The notes: generated by a model from the sequence alone, not told the origin. A DNA stretch of 58,860 nucleotides from Pseudomonadota bacterium (GCA_040386355.1 JAZKFP010000050.1:1-58860); one strand, 5' to 3'; shown: positions 6,792 through 27,938, counted from the stretch's first letter. Program-made: numbers and translations.

Positions 6792-9383
6792 ATGATAAGG
6801 ATTATTATATTTTGCGGAAGTTTGCTTTTATCCGGTTTTATCTACGCAAAATCTTTCAACCTCTACCTTTATATCCCCTCAGGAAGTACCGCCTCTACCA
6901 GTTTCTTCGAACGTAATATTTTTTATACACGCTGCGATGTACAAATTGGTGAGGATGAGGAAACAAGATTTCCGGCGAATAGCTTTATTAACGTCACTTC
7001 CTCTGAATTTAAAAAAATTTATTGTGAATTTCCTGGGCGTGATACCACTTATGAATTTAAATATGGTCGTGATGTTATTAATCCAGATTTTTGGGCAGGA
7101 ACAAATATTAAAAATAGTGAATTTGGGCTTCTTTTTGATGGAACAGGAAATCCATTTAGATTTGATTCACCGCACGTTTATAGTGAATCTAGCCCTTATT
7201 ACGGATGGTGGGATACTCCTGTTTCAGGAAGTTTTGGTTTCAGCACTCATTCTTATTGGGGGCCTTACATTAATGATGCTTGGCAAATTCCCGCTGCAAT
7301 TTTACTAAAACCGGCAAAAATCCGCGGCACAGAAAGATCGCGTGGATATATTACCAGTGCATCTTATATCCCAGAAGGAGCAGAAGCAGCATTATTAAAT
7401 GGTAGATTTTATTTTTACGAACAAAATTATCGTGATGATAACTCTAAAATTATTAAACCCTTACGATTGTCTGGTTATTACAGTTTTGACGAAAAATTAT
7501 CTCCAGTAAAAGTTCGAGTTACACAAGCGGTATTCCAGGAAGGCGATGACCCGATACGTCTGGTTCATATGAGAACTACTGCGGTTATAGTGGATAAAAC
7601 GGAAAACTTAAGCAATAAGCAAGCTACCGTGAAAATTCTTGATATTACTACCGGTACAGAAAACCCGCCGATTATATTTCAAACAACTGAAGTGAATGCA
7701 AAACCTGGTGAAAATCCTTTGCAGAAGATTTTTTACTGTAATGAAAGCAATAAATTCTGTAATTTAAATAAAGATAAGAAGTATGAAATTTTAATTGGTT
7801 TTGGCGATGGTTTTTCTGAAATCTCTAAAACCGTGACGGTGAAAGAAACAAACATGCTGGAATTATTTTTTGTTCCAATAATTACTCCTGATAGAATTCA
7901 AGAATCAATTTTAAGGGATAAACCATTCATTGAATTATATGTTGCAAATGCTAATCGTTTTATACAACAAGTTTATCCTTTATCTGATAAAGGTTTAACT
8001 CTTGTATCAAAATATTCTGACGTTAGACATCCTGAATCAGTCAAAGACCCAATTAAGGGATCTGAAACATATTGTGATTATAAATCTTGGTTTTTTGATC
8101 GTTCTGCTGATGTTTTCATTTGTGACATCTCTAAAGTTGATAGATTAAAAAATAAAACAAAATCTGTGTTTCAAAGAGGTATTGGTTTGGTTAACCCTTT
8201 CTATTTCGAAAATTTGGGATTAGGGAATGTTACTGGAATAAGAAACAAAAATTATAAATCTGCTTTAGTTGAGTTCATACCATCTGAAACAACTGGAACA
8301 GCCGGATTAACGGTAGTGACAGCTCATGAACTTGGACATACCTTCGGTCTTCCTGGCGTAAAAAACAATATCAATTTCAATGAAGAATATAATCAAGACC
8401 CTGATACAAAAGAAGTTATTTCTAGCCGAGCAGATTTAGTTAAAGCTAATGGTTTTAATGTTTACAGCGGAGCATTTAAGACTGATAAAATAAATTTTAT
8501 GAGTGATGCCAGCTATCCTAGCAGTAGCTATTGGGTAAGTAATACTACTTGGGTAAAATTACAAGAAAATCTATCTCTTGAAAAAGATGACCCAAAGCTT
8601 ATTTATGTTACATTCATGCTCACTAAAACTGACAAAGTTTATCCAATGCACTGGCATACGATGGATGGGTTTGATTCAGAACATGATAAAGGCGTATATG
8701 AAATTGTTACTATCGATGCAGGAGGTAATGACATTGAAAGTTACAAATTCGATCCTGAATTTGTTTGGGAAGTAGAGGGCGCAGACAATATTATTACTGA
8801 TAAAACTGTGATTTCAAAAAATATTTTATTAAGTGATGATGTTAGATTGATCGAAATTAGAAAGAAAAATGTTGGTTCAATTTTTTCAGTTAATCCTGAA
8901 GTTAAAATATTGGAAGATTATTCAGTCGAAATTATTGAGCAGTGCAACATTAACACTTATCAAAAATCAATTATAGAATCAGGAATTCATTCTATAGTCG
9001 CCAATATTATAAATAAGAGTTTTAATAAAAAAGATTTAATTAAGCTTAGGGAAATTGGTACTATTTATGCCAGCTTGAATAGTAAAGATTGTGATTTATC
9101 ATCCAGTTATTTTCGCACTCCACAAGAGATATCACTATCGGTTTTTGAACAATTAGATCGTTTAAATAAAATATTTGAAGCTGATTACTCAGCGCATGTC
9201 GGTGATTTTGATAAGGACGGAGATGTAGATCAAAACGATTTAAATATACTTATGACCTCACGTAACAAACCGGTAAATGAAGAAAATAATTCAATGGATT
9301 TGGATGGAGACGGCATGATAACTGGACTTGATGCTAGAAAACTAACTCAAATCTGCACCCGTGCTAGATGCGCTTTCAATTGA
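6792..9383 (+). CDS. secreted zinc metalloprotease with C-terminal dockerin-like double Ca-binding repeat
   Basis: Signal-peptide-like MIRIIIFCGSLLLSGFIYA. HELGH zincin motif at 8325-8339. The C-terminus (9195-9380) reads GDFDKDGDVDQNDLNILM...DLDGDGMITGLDARKL, a dockerin type I pattern. Confidence 0.7.
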   Translation: MIRIIIFCGSLLLSGFIYAKSFNLYLYIPSGSTASTSFFERNIFYTRCDVQIGEDEETRFPANSFINVTSSEFKKIYCEFPGRDTTYEFKYGRDVINPDFWAGTNIKNSEFGLLFDGTGNPFRFDSPHVYSESSPYYGWWDTPVSGSFGFSTHSYWGPYINDAWQIPAAILLKPAKIRGTERSRGYITSASYIPEGAEAALLNGRFYFYEQNYRDDNSKIIKPLRLSGYYSFDEKLSPVKVRVTQAVFQEGDDPIRLVHMRTTAVIVDKTENLSNKQATVKILDITTGTENPPIIFQTTEVNAKPGENPLQKIFYCNESNKFCNLNKDKKYEILIGFGDGFSEISKTVTVKETNMLELFFVPIITPDRIQESILRDKPFIELYVANANRFIQQVYPLSDKGLTLVSKYSDVRHPESVKDPIKGSETYCDYKSWFFDRSADVFICDISKVDRLKNKTKSVFQRGIGLVNPFYFENLGLGNVTGIRNKNYKSALVEFIPSETTGTAGLTVVTAHELGHTFGLPGVKNNINFNEEYNQDPDTKEVISSRADLVKANGFNVYSGAFKTDKINFMSDASYPSSSYWVSNTTWVKLQENLSLEKDDPKLIYVTFMLTKTDKVYPMHWHTMDGFDSEHDKGVYEIVTIDAGGNDIESYKFDPEFVWEVEGADNIITDKTVISKNILLSDDVRLIEIRKKNVGSIFSVNPEVKILEDYSVEIIEQCNINTYQKSIIESGIHSIVANIINKSFNKKDLIKLREIGTIYASLNSKDCDLSSSYFRTPQEISLSVFEQLDRLNKIFEADYSAHVGDFDKDGDVDQNDLNILMTSRNKPVNEENNSMDLDGDGMITGLDARKLTQICTRARCAFN

Positions 9384-12419: not shown

Positions 12420-13304
12420 TTATGTATGGTGTGTTTTGTTTAGAAAATCATTCGCTTTTTGCGCTTGCGCCGCTGCCTGAAAAATATATTTTTTATCACT
12501 TTTTAAGGCTTGCAACCATGTTTTGATATATTGTGCATGATCCTCGCGGCCTTCTTGTTTAATTTTGAATTGCGCGCATAAAAAAGCACTGCCAAGCTCG
12601 GCGATAAGCTCCTCAAAAGCGTATGCCTTAAAATCATTGTGTAAAGCTGATTGTTTACGATTAAGGCGTGTTTTACCGCCGCTCCAATGTGTTAATTCAT
12701 GAAATAGAATCGCATAATAATTATCTGTCGCGCTGTGCTTTTCGTCTTCAAAAAATATTTCTTTGCTGACCATATGAATTTGATCGAGTGAAGGAATAAA
12801 ACAGGGGGTGGATTGATTTTCGATAATAACGGCTTTTGTTTTTTCAACAAAAGTGTCAATTTCTTTTATCGTTTCTACATTCCCTAAAATACGTGTTTCT
12901 TCCTTGATTTCCGGTTGATAATTTTCGACTTGATCGGCGTTGAAAACAGAATAATATTTAAGCATATTGTAAAAATCCTGTTCTTTCTCTTTTTTATTTA
13001 CGTCTTTTTTTTCTACAAGTTGGTAATAAATTATTGTCGTCGATTTTTCATTTTTTTTCACTTGCGCGCCTTTTTCTTGCCATTGTTTGTAGGTTCCCCA
13101 TTCGCCAGAGCTATATCCGGCTTTAAATTGTGCGAACCATAAAACAACGGTATTAATCCCGCGATAGGCGTTGCCTGTCATGGGATTGAGCGGCAAAGCC
13201 TGCCCGGCAAGTTGCGCAAACGGTGCCTTAAAATCATCGGAATTGACACGCTCCAGTGCCTCAATAATGCTGTTGGTGATGTCCTGATAAATGTCTTTTT
13301 TCAT
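12420..13304 (-). CDS. ardC: ArdC-like antirestriction protein (ssDNA-binding N-domain plus zincin metalloprotease domain)
   Basis: ITNSIIEALE...NAYRGINTVVLW...GEWGTYKQWQEKGAQVKK is the DUF1738/ArdC N-domain pattern, with an HELTHW metallopeptidase motif. ATG at 13304 has AGGAGAA upstream. The ORF-track start at 13415 is unlikely. Confidence 0.85.
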   Translation of the reverse strand: MKKDIYQDITNSIIEALERVNSDDFKAPFAQLAGQALPLNPMTGNAYRGINTVVLWFAQFKAGYSSGEWGTYKQWQEKGAQVKKNEKSTTIIYYQLVEKKDVNKKEKEQDFYNMLKYYSVFNADQVENYQPEIKEETRILGNVETIKEIDTFVEKTKAVIIENQSTPCFIPSLDQIHMVSKEIFFEDEKHSATDNYYAILFHELTHWSGGKTRLNRKQSALHNDFKAYAFEELIAELGSAFLCAQFKIKQEGREDHAQYIKTWLQALKSDKKYIFQAAAQAQKANDFLNKTHHT

Positions 13305-13744
13305 CGCTTTTCTCCTGTCATTTCGGGTTAATGCATCGCGCATTAACCCCTGACCCGCTGGCGAAGCGGTGGGGGTGCAAATGGAAAGAAAAATCGACGG
13401 CGGGCGCACAAGCAAAGCGCGGAGCCTCGGGAGACCGTCTATTTTTCTTGAAATGCGCTGGGGGCGAAGCCCTAAGTTTTTTTGATAGAAAGGCGAAATT
13501 TATTTTACATGAGGCTGTTCAATAATCCGGGAGATTTGAGGTTAATCAATTTTCTGGAGTTTGATTAATGATCAAAAATGGGCACGTTTTTAAGCGCACA
13601 GGGGGGAATTATTTTGACAGCGGGCAACGCGTTGAACCTTGCAGACGTGAGGAAGCAAGGGCTTGTTAGGGGATTTGGTTTTTAATGGCGCATTTAATGC
13701 GCGGCAATAATATTAGAATTTATATATTTGAACACCAAAAAATA

Positions 13745-14340
13745 TTATTCACTGAAATAGCTCGGCAGTTTTGATAAAACAGTAATTATCAATTCAGAAT
13801 ACTGATCTAAAATATTATAACTAAATCCTTCCGCAGGAACTCCTTCAAGCTGCAACGACTTCGCTAATATTTTACAAACTTCACGATCTACATAACCTTT
13901 TTTATACAGCCAAACTTCTAAGCTACTTGATAATCCTATTTTCAATTTAGTTTGAAGCATCCTGATTGATTCTAACAATTCTTTGTTTAAACCTTTTCCC
14001 TCTGCAATATCAGCTATCGTACCCAAAATAAGCATTGAATCAAAAGAAAGCGCCTCATCGGCAAGATCAAAAACATGATCCATTTTAAGCTCTCTTTTTT
14101 GTGATCCCGCCTGATAAAAGCTTGAGATTGTTTAAGAAATATCAAAAGATTTTTATAGCTATTACCCGCAAGCCATTTCATTGCGAACTCAAATAGCATA
14201 TTTGCAGGTTTAATTTTTGATAAGCTTTTATTTTTATTCAATTGAACTATCAAAGGCCAGAAAAGCACCAACATTTCTTCTTTGCTTGGTGCAATGTGAA
14301 TATCAAACCAATTTTCTTCTAACCAAGCTTCAATTAGCAA
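13745..14340 (-). pseudogene. frameshifted AT-rich gene fragment (possible C-terminal piece of a larger, perhaps helicase-like, protein)
   Basis: Two overlapping same-strand ORFs (14014..14340 and 13745..14083) read as one protein after a frameshift. The fragment starts abruptly at the compositional boundary at about 14340. Confidence 0.4.
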
Positions 14341-14387: not shown

Positions 14388-14560
14388 ATGAGACTGATGA
14401 CGAGATTTGAGCTGGCCGCGAAAACTGAAAGCTAGCTGTATGCCCTGCTCAGAGAGGCGTTCAACGAGCTTGCGAAAAGCAATACCCGACACCCACCAAC
14501 GCCGCAACGCGCTGGCTTCCATCGAGAATATTCAGGGAGAATTAAAACGCCGCCAAAAAC
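14388..14560 (+). pseudogene. degraded small conserved plasmid/ICE-type ORF (..RRNALASIENI.. family)
   Basis: MRLMTRFELAAKTES, then TAG (14433-14435), then LYALLREAFNELAKS. The text continues in the +1 frame as IPDTHQRRNALASIENIQGELKRRQKL. That makes one amber codon plus one frameshift. The 3' boundary is approximate. Confidence 0.3.
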
Positions 14561-16815
14561 TTTCCTTGGTCATGAAGATGAAATCCGACCGAAGAATCAG
14601 CAACAATCAGCATCAAGGCTGGCAATCCCTCTACCTGCAAGGATTTTGTTAAAAAGCAAAGCTGCCCGACATCGGCCTGACTTGGTAAAGCAGAGCAGCC
14701 GCGAGGGTGAGAGTGCCATTCGCCAACATATGTTACAATCCCTGCTGTTTTGTCTCGGCAGTCGTCAAGTATATCTGTTGACTCGTAAGCTGCCCGACCG
14801 AAACTCGAAGGGGTTGCTTCACTGTTTTCAGGGGCTGAGCAGGCTTTGACCAGAAAAATAGTCTTATCTTTTTGATCGATTATTCCAAACAATATTCCAC
14901 CAGTTTCATTTGGAAGCGCTGTTAGACGCATGGCATTTACATCACTTAAAAATCCATCATCCCAATAAACTTCCCATTCTCCAATTTTGATCGAATGGCT
15001 AGGATTCACCGGAATATTTCTTGGAACAACTGCCCCGCTCTCGTCCAGATAGTCCCAGATGCAAATTCTGGCATTCGCTGATCCCGTGCTTTTCCTGATT
15101 TGCCGGGCAAGCATTGCGGCATGTAAATGAATCAATTCGTCCGAAATGGTTAGCGTAATTGCCCTGCAACCCGCTCCGACCCATTGGCGACCGATGTGGC
15201 CGGTCAGGTGATGCGCGCCCCAAGCAGAATTCAAAATTGATCTGTAATATTGTGCTTCCAGGCTGTTGCAACGTATTTTTCGGTCGCTATCTTCTAGGAG
15301 CATAACGCAAGAGATTCCCGAAGGCGTTATAAAGACACTGGCGGTTCGAGGTGCGTCGTCTCTTTGAGAAATTTCTCTAGGGACATGCAAGGTTGTAGTA
15401 GCGTCAATTAGGAGTTCTGAGTTTTCTATTGCACACAGCGCATCGGGATTATCCGAAAGTATGCTGGACACAAAAAAATTCGCCTTTCTTTCTGATGGAT
15501 GAATGTCGCCTACGAGGGTGTCAACCACAAATGCTTTTGGGTGCCCTATGCAGCTATGGTTTGCAATATGCCGAACTGTGTTGTGTGCCTTTATTATGTC
15601 TTCGTCAAAATACGACCACTCCCCCCAACATTCCCGGCTCCATATTTTGGCCAGCAACCCGCCAAGCGCACCAACACCAGCGATGATGCCTTTAGGCCCT
15701 GCGTCTTTTGAGTCCAAGCCTGAATATCGTCGTATCTCTTCCGGACTGGGGTAACACCGTACATTTACCGGAGTTAAGGGCATGACCTTCCAGCTATCAG
15801 ACTGGGAACGTAACATGACATCTTTGAACCATTTTTTTGTTTCTGGGTCTTGAAACAATACAGAAAGGCTTTCGCCCAGCTCCCCCATATTGGAATCGAC
15901 AATAAACCCTCGTGTTTCTATCCTTTCCACCACACCACTTCGCAATCTCGGAATGCCAAGAAGCAAGAGGACAAATTCTTTTCGATTTTTCTGAAATTCA
16001 ACTCCATTCTCACTGACAACATCTAAAATCGATTTTTTCAGAAGTTCAACAATACCTTTCCCTCTACGTTCCAGAAGGAGTTCCAATTGTCCTAGGGTAT
16101 GCGGATATTCTTCAACAGGGCCGTTTTCAATAGGGTCAAGAGCAAGAGTGACAGGCAGGCACAATGGGGTATTGGCAGATACTTTGTTTTCATAAACGCC
16201 TATAAGCGTTACGGTTTTTACACCTTCTGGCTCGACAGGGACGAAATAAATTTTTCTATTCCGAAATTCTTCATTAAAGAAATTTTGAGGCAATATAATG
16301 TCGTAACAGCTAGAAAAAAACAGATGCTCTAACGGCTGGTCATCGCCATGGATGGTGCCTTCTGCGGTTTCCCTGAGCCACCAAAATATGCGCTTTATAA
16401 AAAGCTCAGGAGTCCAAGAGCGCTCAACTGTGTGCCACGGCTCAATGTATAGGCATAACGAGCGGGGTTCGCCTGGCAGTATATGATTTTGATGTATCGT
16501 TATTGGAAATCCGTGCCTTAACGCCCTCACTTCCCAAGGAAACGCATTAGCCGGGCAATATGTGAGGGAGAGCCTCTCGACCCTGCGTATGTCTGCCGGA
16601 TTGTTTGCATCAAACGAACCATCTGCAAAGTCTACAATAACGGACTGACGTTGATGCTCCGGATCAGACCTTAATTCGAGCACTTCGCATGAAGAGTTAT
16701 TTAGGCATGCCTTATAAATCTTTTGAACAGCCGGATCAAGTTGCTCAAGGGCGGTTTGCGCGCCACTCCAATTATAAAAATCTGCTTCCATCAGCCTGCT
16801 CGTGGCGGTGTGCAT
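14542..16815 (-). CDS. E2-like / E1-like (ThiF) / JAB-MPN deubiquitinase-like triple-fusion protein
   Basis: The E2 hallmark HQNHILPGEPRSLCL has HxN followed by Cys121 (codon 16453-16455). The E1 Rossmann motif is GIIAGVGALGG...YFDEDIIKAHNTVRH. The JAMM motif is E..GG.. EWHSHPRGCSALPSQAD. An alternative start, Met9 at 16791, overlaps the upstream stop as TGATG. Confidence 0.85.
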   Translation of the reverse strand: MHTATSRLMEADFYNWSGAQTALEQLDPAVQKIYKACLNNSSCEVLELRSDPEHQRQSVIVDFADGSFDANNPADIRRVERLSLTYCPANAFPWEVRALRHGFPITIHQNHILPGEPRSLCLYIEPWHTVERSWTPELFIKRIFWWLRETAEGTIHGDDQPLEHLFFSSCYDIILPQNFFNEEFRNRKIYFVPVEPEGVKTVTLIGVYENKVSANTPLCLPVTLALDPIENGPVEEYPHTLGQLELLLERRGKGIVELLKKSILDVVSENGVEFQKNRKEFVLLLLGIPRLRSGVVERIETRGFIVDSNMGELGESLSVLFQDPETKKWFKDVMLRSQSDSWKVMPLTPVNVRCYPSPEEIRRYSGLDSKDAGPKGIIAGVGALGGLLAKIWSRECWGEWSYFDEDIIKAHNTVRHIANHSCIGHPKAFVVDTLVGDIHPSERKANFFVSSILSDNPDALCAIENSELLIDATTTLHVPREISQRDDAPRTASVFITPSGISCVMLLEDSDRKIRCNSLEAQYYRSILNSAWGAHHLTGHIGRQWVGAGCRAITLTISDELIHLHAAMLARQIRKSTGSANARICIWDYLDESGAVVPRNIPVNPSHSIKIGEWEVYWDDGFLSDVNAMRLTALPNETGGILFGIIDQKDKTIFLVKACSAPENSEATPSSFGRAAYESTDILDDCRDKTAGIVTYVGEWHSHPRGCSALPSQADVGQLCFLTKSLQVEGLPALMLIVADSSVGFHLHDQGKFLAAF

Positions 16816-17951
16816 GATGTAACAGAAACGGCAGCAGATGCCGCAACGGCCAGCTTAAAGCTTCCATTTGCTGCTTCAAATTCCAGCGGGGCTGGCTTCC
16901 ACTTGTTTGGCTCTTCACCGGTACATTTAAACACCCCGGATGTGCCAAGTATTTCGCGATATTCTCGCTTTGCCCGGATGCATGGAGGGTCGATGTCATC
17001 ATCCATTACAGGTTTGCTGCTCGAAACAATAAATGCTCCATATCTAGCCTGGGCGAGTGCTTGCCTGGCTTTTTGCGACACTCTTGCATTTTCGCCTTTT
17101 TCAGACCAACTGTCATAAGACAACGACCTCCAAGAGCAGTGATGGGGCGCGAGCAGCAAATCGTACTGTAAATCCACAGCGTTGAATTCGTCGGCGATCC
17201 TCTCCCATATGGCCACACCCGCGTCGCCGCCAGCCAGAAATTTGCTGACACTTGTTCCGTAGGATGAATTTTTGATCCCAAAATTGATAATTACGCTCGA
17301 ATCGTTCTTTGATAGCCTTTCTTCGGTTTCATCATTCTGCTTGCCAATAGGGGCGATCAGAAGTGATGTGAGAAACTCGGAAGACGACTGATTTATCCCC
17401 GAAAATTCGTTGCCAGCCTTCACAAGAATTGGAGACAAATCGTCAGTTTTGCCGTTTTCATCTTCGCCCAGTACCAAAATCTTATCGCCATCATTTACTG
17501 CAAGCCGTTTTTTTCTGTATTCCGTAACCCGGCGTCTGGCCTCAGCATTGAACGCTTTTGCATCATCGCATAGCACATGGTTCTTTGATGCCCTGCGAAA
17601 TACCATAGGGGATGACCACATTTGACGAATTACAATTCGTTTTTCGTTCTGCGGCTTCCTATCGTCCGGATAATCCGCAATCGGGCCAAGCCAAAAATGT
17701 TTTCTCAGGCCCAGACAATGATCTTCGTCCGGGTGGGTTAACAGCATTGCATCAACATAAGGACGATTACTGCTGTCCGCTTTCAGCCTGCTTCTAAGCA
17801 TTTTTGCAACATCAGGGGTCGTTTCATCCGGATCATCCGCAGACGACCCGATCTTGCAGTCAATCAAGAGGCAGGTCGCATTTTGATCTGCAAGCCTAAC
17901 CAGAACCATATCGCCATTATCGACAGGGAAAAATGTAACCTTTGCGGCCAT
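16791..17951 (-). CDS. metallo-beta-lactamase-fold protein (ComEC/Rec2-like HxDxDH variant), predicted hydrolase/nuclease
   Basis: KVTFFPVDNGDMVLV...CLLIDC, LLTHPDEDHCLG, later LLAPHHCS. ATG at 17951 is preceded by GGAG. The C-terminal tail ...AVAASAAVSVTSCTPPRAG ends in Gly. Confidence 0.8.
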   Translation of the reverse strand: MAAKVTFFPVDNGDMVLVRLADQNATCLLIDCKIGSSADDPDETTPDVAKMLRSRLKADSSNRPYVDAMLLTHPDEDHCLGLRKHFWLGPIADYPDDRKPQNEKRIVIRQMWSSPMVFRRASKNHVLCDDAKAFNAEARRRVTEYRKKRLAVNDGDKILVLGEDENGKTDDLSPILVKAGNEFSGINQSSSEFLTSLLIAPIGKQNDETEERLSKNDSSVIINFGIKNSSYGTSVSKFLAGGDAGVAIWERIADEFNAVDLQYDLLLAPHHCSWRSLSYDSWSEKGENARVSQKARQALAQARYGAFIVSSSKPVMDDDIDPPCIRAKREYREILGTSGVFKCTGEEPNKWKPAPLEFEAANGSFKLAVAASAAVSVTSCTPPRAG

Positions 17952-17973
17952 GATATTTAACTCCAATTCTAGT

Positions 17974-18600
17974 TTATAAAGCCGCAACTACGGCATTCAC
18001 GACAAACCGATTCCCAAACACCCGCGCAGTGATTAGTGATATTGTCAGAAATGCTCCCTGCACCAGATAAACCATGTTGTTGATTTTTCCCGTCAACTCT
18101 GCGTTCCCAAAAGCTGACCAAGCCAGCGTTGCAATAAAGATTATCAACAACCCTGAAAAAGCGTCCCTGTATAACAAAAAGCTGCGGTGAGCCTGCAACA
18201 CTTCCGGCGTGTCTTTCACAGACTTGTAAATTTGCTGGTACCAACGGCTGTTCCGAATGGAGCCATCGATTTTATCTTCTGAAAACACTTCGGGCCACCT
18301 GCTTTTAAGGGTCTCGAATTCAACTCTTGGTTCACTTTTGCAAAGCTTGTCGATTCGGCAAGCCGGCAATTCGTTTTTCACTCTGGTAAACACTATCTTG
18401 TGCTTTATTCCATGGGGAATAATATTTGCCAGCATCACCAAAACTGCCGAGAGCATGAGACTCATGCCTCCTGCCATGGCGGCATCTGCGATATTCGATA
18501 CAGCCTTGTATCCGAATTGCAGGAAGACAGAAGCGGTCAAAGATGCAGCCATGATGAAGAAAATGTTTTTGCTATTTTCTTTTTTTAAATCGACTTCCAT
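17974..18600 (-). CDS. membrane protein, about 4 TM helices with a central soluble loop
   Basis: Hydrophobic segments are IFFIMAASLTASVFLQFGY, GMSLMLSAVLVMLANII, FSGLLIIFIATLAWSAF and VYLVQGAFLTISLITARVF. Same strand as the MBL gene, 22 nt upstream of it. Confidence 0.6.
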   Translation of the reverse strand: MEVDLKKENSKNIFFIMAASLTASVFLQFGYKAVSNIADAAMAGGMSLMLSAVLVMLANIIPHGIKHKIVFTRVKNELPACRIDKLCKSEPRVEFETLKSRWPEVFSEDKIDGSIRNSRWYQQIYKSVKDTPEVLQAHRSFLLYRDAFSGLLIIFIATLAWSAFGNAELTGKINNMVYLVQGAFLTISLITARVFGNRFVVNAVVAAL

Positions 18601-18620
18601 TTTTCAGTTTCCACTCTCAA

Positions 18621-18992
18621 TTAAATTTTTCCGCAAAACGGAAGCGAACGTGATGACGTTGCATCCAAAAGCAAATGGCTCAAATATCCGGCACCTGCAC
18701 AAAGCGTCAACCCTCTTGCGAACGCCTCCACGCGATCTTGCGGTCGCCATTCATAAGCCTTCTTAAGCCCATACCCAATCAGTCCCAGGACGATCACGCT
18801 GTGACAAAACTGGCGGTGATGGGGATTGTTCAAGGAAGGTTCGAGAACGTCTGGCAACTTACTGAATGCTGTCCCTACTCCCATAGCCAGCAAGAAATCG
18901 TGTTGAAGATTGCCACTTTGATCCGAGTCGCCAATCGCGACCACTAAGCCAGCGAATCCCCCGACGATTGAGTACGTTGAGCAATTTGCCAT
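18621..18992 (-). CDS. small membrane-bound metal-dependent hydrolase-like protein (DUF457/YdjM-like)
   Basis: HHRQFCHSV and GYLSHLLLDATS motifs in a hydrophobic protein. ATG at 18992 has GGAG upstream. The ORF-track start at 19073 overlaps the upstream small gene. Confidence 0.55.
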   Translation of the reverse strand: MANCSTYSIVGGFAGLVVAIGDSDQSGNLQHDFLLAMGVGTAFSKLPDVLEPSLNNPHHRQFCHSVIVLGLIGYGLKKAYEWRPQDRVEAFARGLTLCAGAGYLSHLLLDATSSRSLPFCGKI

Positions 18993-18993
18993 G

Positions 18994-19167
18994 TTATTTC
19001 TCCTTTCTGACCCCTTTGAACGGGGATTTGTCGGTGGTTTTAACGTCCATGAAGCGTCCAGTATCAGTATCACGCTTCACGTAATGCCCTGAAGGGGTTT
19101 GGGTCTGCGAGCGATCTTTGACTGCGCCTTTGCGATGTCCGTCACCAGTTGGAGGATTTTTAGCCAT
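18994..19167 (-). CDS. 57-aa basic hydrophilic protein, first gene of the operon
   Basis: GAAGGAG-N7-ATG. Product is MAKNPPTGDGHRKGAVKDRSQTQTPSGHYVKRDTDTGRFMDVKTTDKSPFKGVRKEK. Its stop lies 1 nt before the next ATG. Below the ORF-track cutoff. Confidence 0.5.
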   Translation of the reverse strand: MAKNPPTGDGHRKGAVKDRSQTQTPSGHYVKRDTDTGRFMDVKTTDKSPFKGVRKEK

Positions 19168-19173
19168 ATAGAA

Positions 19174-19262
19174 CTCCTTCTGTCAACAATGGTTAATATT
19201 GATATTAACAGTCGTTAATAGTATCTTTGGAGTGGAGCTCCTTGTCAACAGGTGTTAATATT
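19174..19262. promoter_or_regulatory. divergent promoter/operator region with two ~25-bp direct repeats and a palindrome
   Basis: CTCCTTCTGTCAACAATGGTTAATATT (19174-19200) and CTCCTTGTCAACAGGTGTTAATATT (19238-19262). GTTAATAT-TG-ATATTAAC palindrome at 19192-19209. Confidence 0.45.
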
Positions 19263-19284: not shown

Positions 19285-19647
19285 ATGTCAGACAAAATTG
19301 CTCAAGCCCAAACAATTAGTAAAAATATCAAGGAGATGCGTGAAAGTCGGGGCTGGAATCAAGCTCGGCTTGCTCAGGAGGCTGGTATAACCGCTGCCGC
19401 GCTAAGCATGATAGAGAAGGGTGATGGCCGGATGCCCACGATAGTGCTTTTGCGGAAAATCGCATCAGCGCTTAAGGTTCAGCTCAATGAGATTACAGGT
19501 GAAGAGCCCGCAATGGTTTCCGAGACTGAGGAGCGCAGCCGCGAGTTTTACCGCAAATGGGGGGATGTCATTGATGGCTTGCCGCCGGATGATCAGGCGA
19601 GATTGAAAGACATGGCTGAAAGACTGAAAGAGATCACGAAAAAATGA
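19285..19647 (+). CDS. XRE-family HTH transcriptional regulator
   Basis: IKEMRESRGWNQARLAQEAGITAAALSMIEKG is a classic Cro/C1 HTH. AGGAG upstream of the ATG at 19285. ATGA overlap with the next gene. Confidence 0.85.
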   Translation: MSDKIAQAQTISKNIKEMRESRGWNQARLAQEAGITAAALSMIEKGDGRMPTIVLLRKIASALKVQLNEITGEEPAMVSETEERSREFYRKWGDVIDGLPPDDQARLKDMAERLKEITKK

Positions 19648-20459
19648 TAGAAGAACAAAAAGGAGTCGTGGAGGCTGAAACGCTGCTGGAGTCTCTCGGT
19701 TTTGACGTGCTTCCAATCGCTCCCATTGATGTTGCCAATTCTATTAACTGCGATGATTTTCGGCTGGTAATGGAGTACCAGGATTTTCAGTCGGACAAAA
19801 TTCTTGGTAAAGCGGAAGGCAATAGCAAAGGTGCTCTCATTTACGTCAATAAAAACATTCCTGACGTGGGGCGACTCAATTTTACTGCCGCCCATGAAGT
19901 CGGGCACGTCTGCATGCACGTCATACCCCAGCAGAAACTTTCTTTTGAGTGCGGAAAACAAGAGTTGAGCAGCTCCTTCGATGATCCCATAGAAAAGCAG
20001 GCGAATGGATTTGCGTCAGGATTATTGATTCCCAAAAGGCTTATCAAACAGCACTCCGATTGCGATATTAACTGGAAAAATATTCATGTAATTTCCCAGT
20101 TGTGCGGAGCCTCTTTGGAGGCGACCTACAGGCGCCTCAGCTTTTTGGAAAAAACGCCGAGCATGCTTGTCATTCACAAAGACGGCAACTTCAAGCGGTT
20201 TGTCCCTTCACAGAATTTCGGTTTTTATGTGGCTCGAACCCCTCTTTCCATTGAGCAAAAATCATTGGTGGTGGACGTTAGCCAGAACCAATTCCCTGCT
20301 GATTTTGACACCACCGATGCCTCCGACTGGGTCAACACTTATTCTAAAAGCGGAAGCCTCAATACAATTTACACAAGCACGATATTGCTGAAAGACGGCT
20401 TTACCTACACAATTTTATCTTATGACGATAATTGCCTTGCTGAAGATGATGATTACTAG
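19644..20459 (+). CDS. ImmA/IrrE-family metalloendopeptidase
   Basis: FTAAHEVGHVCMH HExxH motif in the typical ImmA context; translationally coupled to the XRE gene. Confidence 0.8.
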   Translation: MIEEQKGVVEAETLLESLGFDVLPIAPIDVANSINCDDFRLVMEYQDFQSDKILGKAEGNSKGALIYVNKNIPDVGRLNFTAAHEVGHVCMHVIPQQKLSFECGKQELSSSFDDPIEKQANGFASGLLIPKRLIKQHSDCDINWKNIHVISQLCGASLEATYRRLSFLEKTPSMLVIHKDGNFKRFVPSQNFGFYVARTPLSIEQKSLVVDVSQNQFPADFDTTDASDWVNTYSKSGSLNTIYTSTILLKDGFTYTILSYDDNCLAEDDDY

Positions 20460-21654: not shown

Positions 21655-23322
21655 TTAAAGACGCAGTTTTGTTTTTCCCTTATAAGCTTTGCCATAGAGT
21701 GGGTTCACTTCAAGCTGCTTTTTCCATGGTGAAATTTCGTGATAACTGATTTTATCCAGCAAGACAGGTCGTAAGCCACCGGAAAATAGAATGATTTTAT
21801 CTGTCCGGCGCACTTCATCCGGTGTCATCAGTTTTCGTGGAGTTTCATGCACTGAAGTTGAGACCGGATTAAAAAAATATTCGCCTATATTATAGTTTTT
21901 TGATTTGATGGATTGGTCACCCAACATATTTGAAATTAATTGGCAGGTTTTAAACGATCTTATATTCATGATGATTTTTACTTCTGTTTGAGAAAGCAAT
22001 GTTTCTAAACTTTCTCTTCCGTAAACATAAGCCCATTGCTCAAGCTCCTGAATTATGAGCCACATAGTAATCTGGTATTCTCTTGCCAAAGTTAACATCG
22101 ATGGCAAATTATCAACTTTAAAATTGGTAATTTCATCGCATAAAAAACATACGCGATTGGGGCCGGTAGTACGCATTAATTCTCTCAATGCACACCAGGA
22201 TAAAACCGCTAGCCATGGCGCATAGACGCTCATGCGAGTTGGATCAGCAATAAGATAAATAGTGATTTTTTTGTGTTTCATATCCGAAAAACGAAAATCA
22301 CATACGGACGTACATTCTGCAAGAACACCGCTTGCAGAAAACACTTCTACGGATTGCACCGCGCCCTCTCGAAAACTCTCAACTTGTTTAGGATCGCCAT
22401 TTTCGATTTTGCCGATCATATCGCGGGCCAGCCTGGCAAGATCACCATGTAAATGGGTGGATTGCACAGCCTCACGCAAGGCGGCATGTAATCTTTCGCT
22501 ATCACTTAGCAGTGATAAGGCGTTCGATAAGGTAGCGTTGCCTTCCATCGTCATCAAATATACAAATGCAAAAATCAAGAATTTTCGCGCACCATTTCGC
22601 CAATATTGGTTTTCACCTTGTGTTTTTGGGTCCTGACAAAACTGCTTTGCCAAACCTTCGGCCTCAGATAAAACTTGATTATGTAATTTTGGATCAACCC
22701 AAGTATCAATTAGAATTTGCAGCGGGTTGTATCGTGCGCCAACACCTAAAATATGCGCATTAATACCTGCTGGATTAACGAAAAGCGTTTCATGCTGAAA
22801 TTTTTTGCGGCGATATTTACCGGTCATGACAGCTAAAGTACCTTTTAAATCCGGCACCAACATACTTGTGGAGTTATGACATAAGGTTGGAATAACAAAA
22901 CCAGTGGTTTTTCCTCCACCAGCCGGACTAAGCACTAATCCAGAGGATTCAATATCTACAAAGACGGGTTTGTTGTTATGTAACCCCGCTAAAAATCCGC
23001 GTGGTTTTTTTCGAGCTCCAGAGAGCAATCCAAAAGTTTTAAATAATCCTGCTTGCTGTATTTCTTTAGGTGAAGCCCAACCGGCAGTTCCGGCTTTGCC
23101 GGTGGTTTTCATAGCTTTAATATAAAAAAATATTCGGGGAATGGATCTTAAAATTAAAGCGCCGAGATGGGCAAATAATAATCCGGCAGAAAACATGAAC
23201 ATCAGCGGCATTAATGCCCATTCGGTTTCGAGTAAATCAAATGTTTTCCATGCAAACCAGGAAAATAATACACCTAAAATCAACATGCCGGTGGGATGTT
23301 CACCTTGTCGATGATATCGCAT
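21655..23322 (-). CDS. type IV secretion coupling protein (VirD4/TraG/TraD family)
   Basis: Two N-terminal TM helices, Walker A SPAGGGKTTGFVIPT, and overall T4CP length and pattern. Confidence 0.85.
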   Translation of the reverse strand: MRYHRQGEHPTGMLILGVLFSWFAWKTFDLLETEWALMPLMFMFSAGLLFAHLGALILRSIPRIFFYIKAMKTTGKAGTAGWASPKEIQQAGLFKTFGLLSGARKKPRGFLAGLHNNKPVFVDIESSGLVLSPAGGGKTTGFVIPTLCHNSTSMLVPDLKGTLAVMTGKYRRKKFQHETLFVNPAGINAHILGVGARYNPLQILIDTWVDPKLHNQVLSEAEGLAKQFCQDPKTQGENQYWRNGARKFLIFAFVYLMTMEGNATLSNALSLLSDSERLHAALREAVQSTHLHGDLARLARDMIGKIENGDPKQVESFREGAVQSVEVFSASGVLAECTSVCDFRFSDMKHKKITIYLIADPTRMSVYAPWLAVLSWCALRELMRTTGPNRVCFLCDEITNFKVDNLPSMLTLAREYQITMWLIIQELEQWAYVYGRESLETLLSQTEVKIIMNIRSFKTCQLISNMLGDQSIKSKNYNIGEYFFNPVSTSVHETPRKLMTPDEVRRTDKIILFSGGLRPVLLDKISYHEISPWKKQLEVNPLYGKAYKGKTKLRL

Positions 23323-23415: not shown

Positions 23416-24708
23416 TTATTTAATTTTCAAAAGCTGCATTGGATTTATAACGAGATTATTTGCATTAACGGACTGTGCGGATTGAAGCGCTTGGATCATA
23501 TTTTCTCCCTTATTTCCCGTTTCATTTTTTATGTGAAATTTTTTGGCAAAAGTTTCACCATTAACCGATAAACGAAGTTCCCCTTTCACTCCGCCAATTT
23601 TTATGCCGTCAAAAAAGTTAATTGCAATTATAAGTTTTTCTAAATCAATTTCTGAATGAAACTCAATAATTTCATACCCATTCAAAGCAGTATTAGAACT
23701 TCTATAATCTTTCCAATACGACCCTTCAGGTGAAGATGAATTTGCATAAAATAAAGGCTTAGCACCAGGAAAAGGCAATGCGTATAAATCTAAATCACAA
23801 GTTGCGCAGTCCCAGGACAAAGAAATTTCAACATCCCTGCCCTGCCGTATTTCGAAAGTCGACAATATTTTTTCTGATAGCTTTCGATCAAAAATTGACT
23901 GCTCTCTACGCTGTGTATGCAGACGGATCATTTCTAATTTTCCAGGCTGAGCATTTCCAAAATTATGCTGGGAAATTTTTATGTCTTTTCCCAGTGTTTT
24001 TTGAACACGCTGTAGAATAATTTCCGGATTGTTGGCAAAACTCAACAAACTCCCACCTTGACGCTCAATGAAAAGTGTCCAAAAGCGTTTTATAAAATAG
24101 ATATTTTGATCGTTTAAATTTTGAGAATTGGTGTAAGCAAAATGCACACGCATATTTGCTAACAGTTCAGGTGTATCAACTGTTCCAAAAGGTGTAATCG
24201 CCGTGGATTCCAATAAATGCGCATCAGAAGGAATGCTTGGGGCCGCCATACTAAAAGCCGGTTCTCGCGCGTCGTCATATAAAGGGGAACCGATCATTAA
24301 AATATCTAATGGTTCAAGTGGCGCATAATTTTCGGCTATATAGCGAAGCACTTGCGGGATACGCAGAGCTTCTTTTATTACAGGCTCCGCAGGCTGATTT
24401 TTAGTGAATTTCAGAAGCTTTGAAACCGTTTTACGGTTCACACCCATTCGCGCTTTAGGAGAGTTATAGGCTGAATCAATTGGTATTTTGAAATCACCAA
24501 TGTTTTCCAAGCTATAACCATTGATTAAAATTACATTGTCTCCAGGCTCAAGCGTGGTTAAAAAATTAATCACATTTGAAATCGTTTTTTTTGAATTGGC
24601 TTCGTCCATGTGCGGTGACAATACAATGACCAGGTCACGGGCTTGCACAACTGAACTCATTAAAAGAGTAATTATAAAGAATCCAACGCATAAATAAGGG
24701 TATCGCAT
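23416..24708 (-). CDS. secreted hypothetical protein
   Basis: 430-codon ORF with signal peptide MRYPYLCVGFFIITLLMSSVVQA, directly upstream of the T4CP gene on the same strand. Confidence 0.6.
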   Translation of the reverse strand: MRYPYLCVGFFIITLLMSSVVQARDLVIVLSPHMDEANSKKTISNVINFLTTLEPGDNVILINGYSLENIGDFKIPIDSAYNSPKARMGVNRKTVSKLLKFTKNQPAEPVIKEALRIPQVLRYIAENYAPLEPLDILMIGSPLYDDAREPAFSMAAPSIPSDAHLLESTAITPFGTVDTPELLANMRVHFAYTNSQNLNDQNIYFIKRFWTLFIERQGGSLLSFANNPEIILQRVQKTLGKDIKISQHNFGNAQPGKLEMIRLHTQRREQSIFDRKLSEKILSTFEIRQGRDVEISLSWDCATCDLDLYALPFPGAKPLFYANSSSPEGSYWKDYRSSNTALNGYEIIEFHSEIDLEKLIIAINFFDGIKIGGVKGELRLSVNGETFAKKFHIKNETGNKGENMIQALQSAQSVNANNLVINPMQLLKIK

Positions 24709-24752
24709 GGCATTGCTCCTGATAAAATGAATTTTAAATATGAAAATTAGAT

Positions 24753-25754: not shown

Positions 25755-25888
25755 GTTCTATCTCCAATATATGCTTTTGGTTAACTAGCAACGATACTGT
25801 GACCGTAATGCACTAGAAATTTGGGAAATAGAAATATGATTAAAAATCAAAAAAAAGCACCGCTGTTTTATGGCGGTGCTAATTTTAT

Positions 25889-26437
25889 TTAAAATTTAAT
25901 ATAGTGTTTTGCAACGTGAGGAAATTCGATTTCAACAAATAAAGTTAAAATCCTGAGCCTTTCAACTTTTCGGGAAATACGCTTTGGAAAAAATCCTGTT
26001 TTATCGGCCTCTATATAATGTGATACAGAGCGCATATCGGGATCATTTCCAAACGCCTCATCTAAATCTGGCAATTCATAAATACTTTCATTCGCATTTA
26101 TGAATTTACGTCCTTTCGAAAAGACAATTGAAAGTAAATCTAACAATTTTCTTCTTGAAACATTTTTTTTCATTTTATCTTTAGAGACTTTATCTTTAGA
26201 GGATTTATCTTTAGAGGATTTATCTTTAGAAGCTTTATCTTTAGAAGCTTTATCTTTAGAAGCTTTATCTTTAGAAGCTTTATCTTTGGAAGTTTTATCT
26301 TTGGAAGTTTTATCTTTGGAAGCTTTATCTTTGGAATGATCTTTTAAGCTCTTAATGACCATCCAAGTTATCCAATAATTTAGGGGGTGGTATAGCTCTG
26401 CCTTACTTGCAACACGAATTGTTTTTTTAAATTTCAT
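25889..26437 (-). CDS. hypothetical protein with an (S-K-D-K-x)11 pentapeptide repeat
   Basis: ATG at 26437 with AGGA upstream. Eleven in-frame 15-bp repeats encode SKDKA/T/S/V units. Confidence 0.55.
   Translation of the reverse strand: MKFKKTIRVASKAELYHPLNYWITWMVIKSLKDHSKDKASKDKTSKDKTSKDKASKDKASKDKASKDKASKDKSSKDKSSKDKVSKDKMKKNVSRRKLLDLLSIVFSKGRKFINANESIYELPDLDEAFGNDPDMRSVSHYIEADKTGFFPKRISRKVERLRILTLFVEIEFPHVAKHYIKF
26174..26338. repeat. 11 tandem copies of a 15-bp unit (tttatctttagaagc and variants)
   Basis: Counted directly: units start every 15 bp from 26174 to 26324. Variants are grouped in runs (gagga x2, gaagc x4, ggaagt x2). Confidence 0.9.
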
Positions 26438-27929: not shown

Positions 27930-27938
27930 AATCCACTC

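What the first reader, a model, noticed from the sequence alone, without database searches (positions are those of the whole stretch)
14542..19167. Operon pairing an E2-E1-JAB triple fusion with a ComEC-like MBL protein, two membrane proteins and a 57-aa basic protein, with no ubiquitin-like gene
Five tightly packed minus-strand genes share one promoter region; gaps run from 22 nt down to overlaps. The last gene combines three signatures in one 757-aa protein. It has a eukaryote-like E2 motif (HQN...GEPRSLCL, Cys121), a ThiF/E1 adenylation Rossmann fold (GVGALGG...DEDII..N..RH) and a JAMM isopeptidase motif (EWHSHP...SQAD). It is translationally coupled to an MBL-fold protein with the HxDxDH variant typical of ComEC-type nucleases. 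E1/E2/JAB sets linked to MBL proteins were noted in comparative genomics (Iyer, Burroughs and Aravind 2006). Related Cap2/Cap3 (CBASS) and Bil systems act in phage defence. As far as I know, this fused architecture with two membrane proteins and no Ubl gene has no established mechanism. The block is GC-richer than the host and sits in a mobile element next to XRE/ImmA, which fits a horizontally traded defence or conflict module.
Basis: partly seen in the sequence, partly recalled or inferred. Interest (0 to 1): 0.88.

Follow-up and report, generated by a model that had tools for sequence, protein, structure and literature searches.

The report
CapH/CapP-controlled 6A-MBL anti-phage operon
This is a member of the already described "6A-MBL" anti-phage defence system (a nuclease-like enzyme with a ubiquitin-like tail plus a fused E2-E1-deubiquitinase), switched on by a known DNA-damage-sensing regulator pair and carrying three little-studied accessory genes.

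Summary
The five minus-strand genes and all quoted motifs are present as described. The last two genes match NCBI's curated models for the "anti-phage 6A-MBL system" well above cut-off. That is row 6a of Iyer et al. 2006, and citing papers report it as a validated defence in Pseudomonas aeruginosa (van den Berg 2024). So the core is known, not new.

The missing ubiquitin-like gene has an explanation. The MBL protein has a disordered C-terminal tail ending in P-R-A-G. This tail is nearly universal among homologues, either terminal or followed by a 1-9 residue cap. It parallels the cGAS tail that Cap2 conjugates in type II CBASS.

The neighbouring XRE/ImmA pair matches CapH/CapP, and three operator palindromes lie in the shared promoter region.

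The 208-aa membrane protein belongs to an unannotated four-helix family that repeatedly partners MBL-fold enzymes. It is one of several alternative partners of the core, alongside patatin, another membrane protein and a second MBL.

The 57-aa protein (PADLOC PDC-S38) and the short YdjM-like protein form a portable pair. Elsewhere the pair sits directly after CapH/CapP, WYL or CapK/CapS regulators, ahead of CBASS, Wadjet or 6A-MBL cargo. I found no description of this pair.

The operon lies on an integrative mobile element.

The parts
19644..20459 (+). capP: M78/ImmA-type zinc metallopeptidase (HEVGH) of the CapH/CapP regulator pair
   Evidence: PADLOC capP 3.6e-41 over 8-241 of 242 profile positions. 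Pfam Peptidase_M78 7.6e-13. Overlaps the capH stop (ATGA).
19285..19647 (+). capH: XRE-family HTH repressor, transcribed divergently from the defence operon (ORF opens at GTG 19252; likely start ATG 19285 after AGGAG)
   Evidence: PADLOC capH 7.1e-18. Pfam HTH_3 1.1e-14. Relatives have 120-aa gene calls. Sequence read.
19181..19260 (.). Three 18-bp operator-like palindromes TATTAAC-N3-TGTTRAYA (19181-19198, 19203-19220, 19243-19260) in the divergent promoter region
   Evidence: The motif occurs only here in the window (expected 0.05 by chance; 0 of 100 shuffles reach the observed count). It is conserved at the same place in CapH/CapP loci with either 6A-MBL or CBASS cargo. Binding by CapH is inferred.
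19220..19248 (-). Sigma-70-like promoter of the operon (TTGACA-17-GATACT), overlapping the first operator
   Evidence: Consensus scan, 10 of 12 matches. This is a consensus match only.
18994..19167 (-). 57-aa basic protein, family PADLOC PDC-S38 / phrog_12550; first gene of the operon
   Evidence: PDC-S38 6.5e-32, full length. phrog_12550 1.4e-23. GAAGGAG Shine-Dalgarno. Lies directly upstream of a YdjM-like gene in about 60 of 80 metagenome loci.
18621..18992 (-). 123-aa short YdjM-like membrane protein (conserved PD..EP, HHRQF.H, H..LD)
   Evidence: Pfam YdjM 2.7e-7, 30.7 bits against a cut-off of 29, covering profile positions 59-113 of 176. Alignment A4.
17974..18600 (-). 208-aa four-helix membrane protein ('TM208'), an unannotated family that partners MBL-fold enzymes
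   Evidence: AF2 pLDDT 88.5, all-helical. No Pfam, PADLOC or NCBIfam match. No fold match. 1107 representative clusters. Lies next to the 6A-MBL core in about 23 of 87 loci and next to other MBL proteins.
16791..17951 (-). 386-aa 6A-MBL 'enzyme': ComEC-like metallo-beta-lactamase-fold hydrolase with HPDEDH motif
   Evidence: NF058524 413.5 bits, cut-off 220. AF2 pLDDT 85, pTM 0.89. Foldseek best hit is ComEC MBL domain 9IC4, E 1.6e-11.
16794..16844 (-). Disordered 17-residue C-terminal tail of the MBL protein ending P-R-A-G; proposed ubiquitin-like conjugation end
   Evidence: pLDDT 30-38 for residues 370-386. 58 of 77 homologues end in ..R[AV]G (55 of them in ..RAG), and most others carry the motif plus a 1-9 aa cap. 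Of the 120 closest homologues, 37 end at the Gly and 57 have a 3-aa cap.
14542..16791 (-). 6A-MBL Cap2-Cap3 fusion (E2-E1-JAB), likely 749 aa from ATG 16791 (longest ORF starts at 16815)
   Evidence: NF058523 625 bits, cut-off 320. Alignment A1. TGATG overlap with the MBL stop.
16276..16605 (-). E2/UBC-like domain (HQN, catalytic Cys121 in ORF numbering)
   Evidence: Pfam Prok-E2_A 6.4e-24, residues 71-180. H108 Q109 N110 C121 invariant.
15091..15744 (-). E1/ThiF-like adenylation domain (GxGxxG, D404/D406, R415, invariant Cys550)
   Evidence: Pfam ThiF 1e-5. PADLOC E1-E2 models about 1e-13. Profile hits to Cap2 structures 7TSQ/7TSX/7TO3, 2e-7 to 5e-7.
14575..14979 (-). JAB/JAMM isopeptidase domain (E637, H701xH703, S712xxD715)
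   Evidence: Pfam Prok-JAB 1.4e-10. PADLOC JAB 2.1e-20. PDB 9ILD peptidase 6.8e-9.

Best explanation
The locus is a 6A-MBL anti-phage system carried on an integrative mobile element and kept silent by CapH.

Inferred sequence of events:
1. DNA damage or phage-derived single-stranded DNA activates the CapP peptidase. CapP cleaves CapH at the three operators, and the five-gene operon is transcribed.
2. The E1 domain of the fusion protein adenylates the exposed C-terminal glycine of the MBL protein's flexible PRAG tail.
3. The tail is passed as a thioester to Cys550 (E1) and then Cys121 (E2), and is joined to a lysine on a still-unknown target.
4. The fused JAB domain reverses this. In relatives whose tail carries a short cap, it also trims the cap.

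Conjugation is proposed to prime or localise the ComEC-like metal-dependent hydrolase, most likely a nuclease, which stops phage replication. The 208-aa membrane protein is a lineage-specific partner of the MBL enzyme. The 57-aa + YdjM-like pair is a separate, regulator-proximal add-on that is co-induced with the system.

Shown here: family membership, gene linkage, intact catalytic residues, the conserved tail, the regulator identity and the operators. Inferred by analogy with type II CBASS and CapH/CapP: the conjugation chemistry, nuclease activity, trigger and target.
For: - NCBIfam equivalog matches for both core proteins are far above cut-off.
- The MBL gene lies immediately upstream of the fusion gene in 78 of 80 genome loci from many phyla.
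- E2, E1 and JAB catalytic residues are invariant, and there are exactly two invariant cysteines.
- The E1 region hits Cap2 structures.
- The MBL tail is disordered in AF2. It ends in [RK][AV]G, bare or with a short cap, in nearly all homologues.
- In type II CBASS, the disordered Gly-terminated tail of cGAS is the Cap2 substrate (bioRxiv 10.1101/2022.03.31.486616).
- PMC11601596 groups 'MBL pathways' with type II CBASS as using a fused E2-E1 to conjugate their enzymes to unknown targets.
- 6A-MBL is listed among known anti-phage and jumbo-phage defences.
- capH and capP HMM matches and conserved operators.
- The same seven-gene cassette occurs in different defence-island flanks: GmrSD/Fic/ArdA in one case, an Eco57I/XhoI R-M system in another.
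- The ComEC-like fold with its metal-binding motif conserved.
Against: - No biochemistry was available for this family. The primary paper (van den Berg 2024) is not in the library, so the anti-phage claim rests on citing papers and on NCBIfam naming.
- The substrate of the MBL enzyme is unknown. Weaker fold hits include lactonases and a cyclic-nucleotide phosphodiesterase (Apyc1, E 0.011).
- Most loci carry an extra effector-like gene such as patatin, a membrane protein or a second MBL. This fits a model where the MBL protein is not the sole or main effector.
- ThiF is just below Pfam's cut-off.
- The fusion protein itself was not modelled in 3D.
Confidence: 0.8

Rival explanations
1. CBASS-like three-part system. 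The MBL protein is the conjugation-primed sensor or signal-producing enzyme. The neighbouring variable gene is the cell-killing effector: here the 208-aa membrane protein, elsewhere patatin, another membrane protein, a second MBL or an S1/P1 nuclease.
For: - The core is flanked by one of a few effector-like families in most of 87 loci: patatin about 30, F3 membrane protein about 26, second MBL about 26, TM208 about 23. This mirrors CBASS modularity.
- TM208 identity tracks core identity: 60% at 55% core, 44% at 40%, about 30% at 36%.
- PMC11601596 calls the conjugated proteins 'signaling enzymes'.
Against: - About ten loci with full flanks, and E. coli plasmid pSE11-2, have only MBL + fusion, with or without a regulator. 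The pair therefore seems self-sufficient.
- No ligand-sensing domain such as SAVED or CARF was found in TM208 or the patatin partner.
- MBL-fold enzymes are hydrolases, not known messenger synthases (established knowledge).
- MBL + TM208-like pairs also exist without any E1/E2.
Confidence: 0.3
2. The operon is a concatenation of independent modules that only share a promoter. The modules would be a stand-alone PDC-S38 + YdjM unit with its own function, and a 6A-MBL system with or without TM208. There would be no functional cross-talk.
For: - The S38-YdjM pair occurs in 80 metagenome loci, and only 3 of them carry 6A-MBL. The rest carry CBASS type II or III, Wadjet or other cargo.
- S38 alone occurs in phage genomes.
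- S38 is 79-86% identical between loci whose cores are only 37-56% identical.
Against: - The pair is almost always wedged between a DNA-damage-responsive regulator and an immune cargo: at least 64 of 80 loci.
- Gene spacing in the window is 1-22 nt with no internal terminator above chance.
- This reading does not conflict with the main explanation for the core.
Confidence: 0.45
3. The locus serves the mobile element itself rather than phage defence. For example, a ComEC-like nuclease plus membrane proteins could act in DNA uptake or processing, entry exclusion or plasmid competition.
For: - ComEC-like fold.
- Location between ArdC and a T4 coupling protein on an ICE-like element.
- 315 plasmids carry the fusion gene.
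Against: - There is no ComEC channel domain.
- Homologous cassettes sit in varied defence-island flanks with R-M and GmrSD genes.
- The family is curated and cited as anti-phage.
- The regulators are immune-operon regulators.
Confidence: 0.07

Closest known systems
6A-MBL anti-phage system (Iyer, Burroughs & Aravind 2006, Table 1 row 6a; van den Berg et al. 2024; NCBIfam NF058523/NF058524)
   Same: Triple-module E2-E1-JAB protein translationally coupled to a specialised MBL-fold protein. Both pass the curated equivalog cut-offs, there is no Ubl gene, and the locus is on a mobile element or defence island.
   Different: The literature and NCBIfam describe two genes. Here the pair is embedded in a five-gene operon with a 4-helix membrane partner and an S38 + YdjM-like leader pair, under CapH/CapP control. 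This extended form recurs in at least 8 distinct relatives (L001, L002, L081, L083, L085, L095, L098, L101).
Type II CBASS (CD-NTase + effector + Cap2 + Cap3)
   Same: Homologous E2-E1 and JAB modules. The substrate is an enzyme with a disordered Gly-terminated tail rather than a Ubl. It uses the same regulator families (CapH/CapP, CapW, CapK/CapS) and shows variable effector-like neighbours.
   Different: There is no CD-NTase and no cyclic-nucleotide sensor domain. Cap2 and Cap3 are fused into one chain. The conjugated enzyme is a ComEC-like hydrolase.
CapH/CapP DNA-damage-responsive regulator (Lau et al. 2022; PMC13228613)
   Same: Divergent HTH repressor + M78 peptidase pair with strong PADLOC matches, and palindromic sites in the shared promoter.
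   Different: The cargo is 6A-MBL rather than CBASS, and an S38 + YdjM pair lies between regulator and cargo. Cleavage and ssDNA sensing were not tested here.
Bil / Bub bacterial ubiquitination-like systems
   Same: E1, E2 and JAB chemistry used in phage defence.
   Different: Those systems encode a separate Ubl (BilA/BubA) and separate E1/E2 proteins. Here there is no Ubl, and the enzymes are Cap2-like (Prok-E2_A).
ComEC beta-lactamase-like domain (PDB 9IC4)
   Same: Best structural match for the MBL protein, with an HxDxDH-type metal site.
   Different: A soluble stand-alone protein with about 120 extra residues and a conjugation tail. It has no competence channel domain.

Membership tests
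6A-MBL anti-phage system | Single polypeptide with E2 (Prok-E2_A), E1 (ThiF-like) and JAB domains in that order, matching NF058523 | tested here: met
   625.1 bits against a cut-off of 320, covering model positions 3-665 of 665. Pfam domains are in the expected order.
6A-MBL anti-phage system | Adjacent specialised MBL-fold protein matching NF058524 | tested here: met
   413.5 bits against a cut-off of 220. 1-nt stop/start overlap with the fusion gene. The same adjacency holds in 78 of 80 loci.
6A-MBL anti-phage system | Intact catalytic residues of E2, E1, JAB and MBL | tested here: met
   Invariant HQN/C121, GxGxxG, C550 and ExnHxHx8SxxD. Invariant HPDxDH and H270/H271.
6A-MBL anti-phage system | Protection against phage infection | not testable with these tools
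   Known only from citing papers. The primary paper is not held.
Type II CBASS | CD-NTase (cGAS/DncV-like cyclase) gene in the operon | tested here: not met
   None of the operon proteins gave a PADLOC cyclase hit. Cyclase models did fire on control loci.
Type II CBASS | Cap2 (E2-E1) and Cap3 (JAB) homologues | tested here: met
   PADLOC E1-E2 and JAB models. Cap2 structures hit by the profile. Here the two are fused.
Bil (BilABCD) | Separate ubiquitin-like protein BilA | tested here: not met
   No Ubl family hit was found for any ORF of the operon. The operon is fully occupied by five other genes.
CapH/CapP regulator | Divergently transcribed HTH repressor + M78 metallopeptidase next to an immune operon | tested here: met
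   capH 7.1e-18 and capP 3.6e-41. HEVGH motif. Three operators.
CapH/CapP regulator | ssDNA-stimulated cleavage of CapH and induction of the operon on DNA damage | not testable with these tools
   Taken from the literature only.
ComEC/Rec2 | Competence membrane channel domain fused to the MBL domain | tested here: not met
   Only Lactamase_B was hit. AF2 gives a soluble single-domain fold plus tail. The similarity is limited to the MBL domain.
YdjM (PF04307) | Match to the family profile above the gathering score | tested here: met
   30.7 bits against a cut-off of 29, but only profile positions 59-113 of 176. This is a short version of the family.
SLATT (SMODS and SLOG-associating 2TM effector) | Match of the 208-aa protein or its relatives to any SLATT profile | tested here: not met
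   No SLATT hit for 59 family members. The only lead was one UniRef name on P0322.

The most novel reading that the evidence does not exclude
The 57-aa basic protein and the short YdjM-like membrane protein form a two-gene module that I found undescribed in the literature searched. The module belongs to the DNA-damage-triggered immune switch itself. It sits as the first cargo directly after any of the three known regulator types (CapH/CapP, WYL/CapW-like, CapK/CapS). It lies ahead of interchangeable immune systems: CBASS types II and III, Wadjet, 6A-MBL, and MBL + membrane pairs. It may act as a co-induced membrane executioner, a timer, or a feedback element for these operons.
Probability: 0.3. 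Interest if true: 0.65.

Novelty: new variant of a known kind. Interest (0 to 1): 0.4.

Why it matters
The core is a known defence system, so the locus on its own is ordinary. Three points could still be useful.

1. The near-universal P-R-A-G tail, bare or capped, gives a precise and testable handle on how a Ubl-less E1-E2-JAB system chooses its substrate. It also suggests why the JAB domain is fused.
2. The core is usually accompanied by one of a few effector-like partners. This questions the 'two-gene system' picture and the assumption that the MBL protein is the effector.
3. The S38 + YdjM pair links three separately described DNA-damage-responsive regulator families to a common first cargo gene pair.

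Tried and rejected
- **Primary paper.** I tried to read van den Berg et al. 2024, but it is not held. Its content is known only from citing papers.
- **Single-sequence PDB searches.** Neither the fusion protein nor the MBL protein gave a real hit. A profile was needed.
- **TM208 as a SLATT or other known effector.** Rejected. There were no Pfam, PADLOC, NCBIfam or PHROG hits for the protein or 59 relatives, and no fold match in PDB or BFVD.
- **TM208 related to the other recurrent membrane partner (F3).** hhalign gave probability 1%, so they are treated as separate families.
- **S38 as a hidden Ubl.** It ends in ..VRKEK, not Gly, and it occurs in phages and ahead of non-conjugating systems.
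- **S38 as the lysine-rich conjugation target.** This is weakened because the pair also precedes Wadjet and type III CBASS, which lack E1/E2.
- **Source organism.** A megablast of 24 kb against plasmids hit only a tRNA. A cluster look-up gave no names.
- **Naive ORF calling in GC-rich loci.** It produced antisense artefacts (family F7). Counts were therefore repeated with HMMs on stop-to-stop ORFs. That recount undercounts patatin because of a coordinate filter.

Full report
**1. Observation**

The five minus-strand ORFs exist as described:
- a 57-aa protein at 18994-19167
- a YdjM-like protein at 18621-18992
- a 208-aa membrane protein at 17974-18600
- an MBL protein at 16791-17951
- a triple fusion at 14542-16815

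Reading the junctions gives a 1-nt gap, then 20 nt, then 22 nt, then a TGATG stop/start overlap. Good Shine-Dalgarno sequences precede the 57-aa gene and the MBL gene. Homologues and independent gene calls begin the fusion protein at Met9 (ATG 16791, 749 aa).

This holds for HQN/Cys121, the GxGxxG loop, D404/D406, H411-N412-R415-H416, and E637/H701/H703/S712/D715. Cys121 and Cys550 are the only invariant cysteines. The MBL motif HPDEDH is invariant too. The block is GC-richer (43-48%) than most of the window (30-38%).

**2. What the core is**

Pfam gives Prok-E2_A (6e-24), Prok-JAB (1e-10) and ThiF (1e-5, just under the cut-off). NCBIfam is decisive:
- The fusion protein scores 625 bits (cut-off 320) on NF058523, 'anti-phage 6A-MBL system cap2_3 protein'.
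- The MBL protein scores 413 bits (cut-off 220) on NF058524, 'anti-phage 6A-MBL system MBL-fold protein'. Both are equivalog models.

The name comes from row 6a of Table 1 in Iyer, Burroughs and Aravind 2006. [quoted passage not shown]

Later papers build on this:
- A review says 6A-MBL was predicted and confirmed as an anti-phage component in Pseudomonas aeruginosa, citing van den Berg et al. 2024 (PMC13276650).
- A 2025 preprint lists it among 'known jumbo phage defense systems'.
- Ye et al. group 'MBL pathways' with type II CBASS and type II Pycsar. [quoted passage not shown]

The primary 2024 paper is not in the library. A profile of the fusion family hits the E1 domain of Cap2 structures (7TSQ, 7TSX, 7TO3) and a JAB peptidase (9ILD).

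**3. Linkage**

A scan of one genome per species found at least 463 relatives. In the 80 loci kept, which span many phyla, the MBL gene lies directly upstream of the fusion gene in 78. Of the other two, one (L003) is cut off at the contig end; in the other (L073) tblastn missed the MBL gene, but ORF clustering places an MBL-family gene directly upstream. The fusion gene is also on 315 plasmids in PLSDB, including Klebsiella, Clostridium, E. coli and Acinetobacter.

**4. Why there is no Ubl gene**

AlphaFold2 models the MBL protein confidently (pLDDT 85, pTM 0.89), apart from one short internal loop (residues 210-212) and the last 17 residues, which are disordered. That tail ends P-R-A-G.
- Among 77 homologues from the genome loci, 58 end exactly in ..R[AV]G (55 in ..RAG, 3 in ..RVG). 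Most of the rest have the same motif followed by 1-9 residues. Three have a tandem copy: PRAGSRAG, PRAGRAG and PRAG..LRAG.
In the other 11 the strict R[AV]G search failed: seven have the K[AV]G variant of the motif and four show no such tail or are truncated.

This is the signature of a ubiquitin-like C-terminus: an exposed or protease-exposable glycine. In type II CBASS, the disordered glycine-terminated tail of cGAS sits in the Cap2 adenylation site and is the conjugated 'substrate'. I therefore infer that the MBL protein is itself the conjugated moiety. I also infer that the fused JAB domain both reverses conjugation and, in capped relatives, matures the tail.

The best fold match of the MBL protein is the ComEC beta-lactamase-like domain (9IC4, E 1.6e-11). 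From my own knowledge, that ComEC domain is a DNA nuclease. Nuclease activity of this protein is therefore an inference. The weak PADLOC and NCBIfam hits are also to MBL effectors of defence systems (LmuA, DRT-associated MBL, Avs1a).

**5. The neighbours on the other strand**

The XRE and ImmA genes match PADLOC capH (7e-18) and capP (3.6e-41, nearly full length). CapH/CapP is a described regulator of CBASS and other immune operons. In it, ssDNA from DNA damage stimulates CapP to cleave the repressor CapH.

The 117-bp region between the two start codons holds three copies of an 18-bp palindrome, TATTAAC-N3-TGTTRAYA. These are the only copies in the window (0.05 expected). One overlaps the -35 box of the best promoter match. 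The motif is conserved at the same position in other CapH/CapP loci, whether the cargo is 6A-MBL or CBASS. CapH binding to these sites is inferred.

**6. The 208-aa membrane protein**

This protein has no match in Pfam, NCBIfam, PADLOC or PHROGs. It has no fold match in PDB or BFVD. It models confidently as an all-helical protein with four long helices, and it belongs to a family of about 1100 clusters at 50% identity.

In the 6A-MBL loci it recurs in about 23 of 87, either just upstream of the MBL gene or downstream of the fusion gene. Its identity falls in step with that of the core.

Distant members sit next to other MBL-fold proteins:
- One forms a bare MBL + membrane pair in an R-M island.
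- One lies in an operon with separate E2, E2 and ThiF genes.

So it is a partner of MBL-fold enzymes. It is also one of several alternative partners of the 6A-MBL core. The others are a patatin phospholipase (about 30 loci), an unrelated 2+2-helix membrane protein (about 26), a second MBL that matches PADLOC PDC-M48B (about 26) and, in Nostoc, an S1/P1 nuclease.

About ten loci with complete flanks, and E. coli plasmid pSE11-2, have only the pair plus a regulator. This leaves two readings open. Either the pair is self-sufficient and the partners are add-ons, or the system is CBASS-like with variable effectors.

**7. The 57-aa protein and the YdjM-like protein**

The 57-aa protein is a full-length match to PADLOC candidate PDC-S38 (6.5e-32) and to phrog_12550. 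The 123-aa protein passes Pfam YdjM narrowly, as a short version of the family.

A metagenome scan with the YdjM-like protein returned 80 loci:
- The S38 gene lies directly upstream in about 60 of them.
- Only 3 carry 6A-MBL.
- Most carry CBASS (HNH-SAVED effector, CD-NTase, E2), some a full type II or a type III CBASS, one a Wadjet-like four-gene set (judged from gene sizes and order only; not checked by HMM), and others an MBL + membrane pair.

In at least 64 of the 80 loci, the pair comes immediately after a regulator. The regulators are CapH/CapP (15 loci), a WYL protein (14) or a GHKL kinase + STAS-wHTH pair (about 35). The last is the CapK/CapS system described in 2026. That paper also notes 7 MBL operons and frequent upstream R-M genes, but it does not mention this pair (PMC13373217).

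Many of these loci are near-identical marine elements, so the counts overstate the number of independent events. Even so, the combinations are diverse: three regulator types crossed with at least five cargo types. S38 alone also occurs in phage genomes, for example between terminase and lysis genes. From my own knowledge, E. coli ydjM is part of the LexA regulon, which would make DNA-damage control a recurring theme for this family.

**8. Close relatives and context**

Relatives at 89% and 80% identity carry the same seven-gene cassette: capP, capH, S38, ydjM-like, TM208, MBL and the fusion. Their flanks differ. One has GmrSD, Fic, ArdA and a resolvase. The other has an Eco57I/XhoI R-M system and a resolvase. 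The cassette therefore moves as a unit among defence islands.

In the window it lies between an ArdC anti-restriction gene and a type IV coupling protein. A relaxase, a resolvase and a large serine recombinase abutting tRNA-Ala are also present. This is an integrative conjugative or mobilisable element.

**9. Verdict**

It is out of date on novelty, because the core is the curated and experimentally reported 6A-MBL system.

This analysis adds four things:
- the Ub-like PRAG tail as the likely conjugation end
- the CapH/CapP operators
- the finding that the 208-aa protein is one of several recurrent partners
- the finding that S38 + YdjM is a portable, regulator-proximal pair, for which I found no description

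The biochemical mechanism (target, trigger, MBL substrate) remains inferred.

Noticed in passing
L095-L174 (e.g. L107 6784-7366; L147 6807-7363; L150 4898-5445): The S38 + short YdjM-like gene pair sits directly after CapH/CapP, WYL or CapK/CapS regulators. It lies ahead of CBASS type II or III, a Wadjet-like set, MBL + membrane pairs or 6A-MBL. It seems to be a common 'first cargo' of DNA-damage-regulated immune operons.
   Followed up: partly
L041, L067, L076 (MBL gene 3' ends): Some MBL proteins end in tandem copies of the tail motif (PRAG-LESRPL-RAG, PRAGSRAG, PRAGRAG). This looks like two successive processing or conjugation sites.
   Followed up: no
L176 1276-6681: An operon with two separate E2-CBASS proteins, a stand-alone ThiF E1, three unannotated proteins, a 364-aa protein (MBL-like only by analogy with the same-sized gene in L177; no Pfam hit on record) and a TM208-like membrane protein. 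This could be a split-gene relative of 6A-MBL.
   Followed up: no
L177 4906-6654: A bare MBL (364 aa) + TM208-like pair stands alone beside a type IIG/BREX-like methylase and an SNF2 helicase. This suggests the MBL + membrane pair can be a system of its own.
   Followed up: no
L012, L014, L015, L018, L019 (Nostoc/Anabaena): Cyanobacterial 6A-MBL loci carry a CapK/CapS-like pair upstream. Downstream they carry a membrane protein plus an S1/P1 nuclease (Pfam 2e-43).
   Followed up: partly
L088 5992-6180: An S38 homologue (79% identical) sits in a phage contig between the terminase genes and a lysis cassette (spanin-like ORFs and an M15-type peptidase), like a moron gene.
   Followed up: partly
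window 30379-31970: The 3' end of a large serine recombinase gene overlaps tRNA-Ala(GGC) on the opposite strand. This is probably the integration end of the mobile element.
   Followed up: no
window 12420-13415 and 4532-5815, 21655-23322: An ArdC-type anti-restriction protein (ArdcN + zincin peptidase), a MobA/VirD2 relaxase and a VirD4/TraG coupling protein flank the defence cassette.
   Followed up: partly
window 23416-29756: Three large minus-strand ORFs (430, 333 and 605 aa) next to the coupling protein have no Pfam match at all.
   Followed up: no
window 13745-14083: The 112-aa ORF just downstream of the operon matches phrog_37796 (unknown function, 8e-8). It has no Pfam or NCBIfam hit.
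   Followed up: no
window 6759-9383: An 874-aa protein has weak dockerin and reprolysin-like metallopeptidase hits. A close relative's cassette (L081) also has a large secreted-type metallopeptidase nearby.
   Followed up: no
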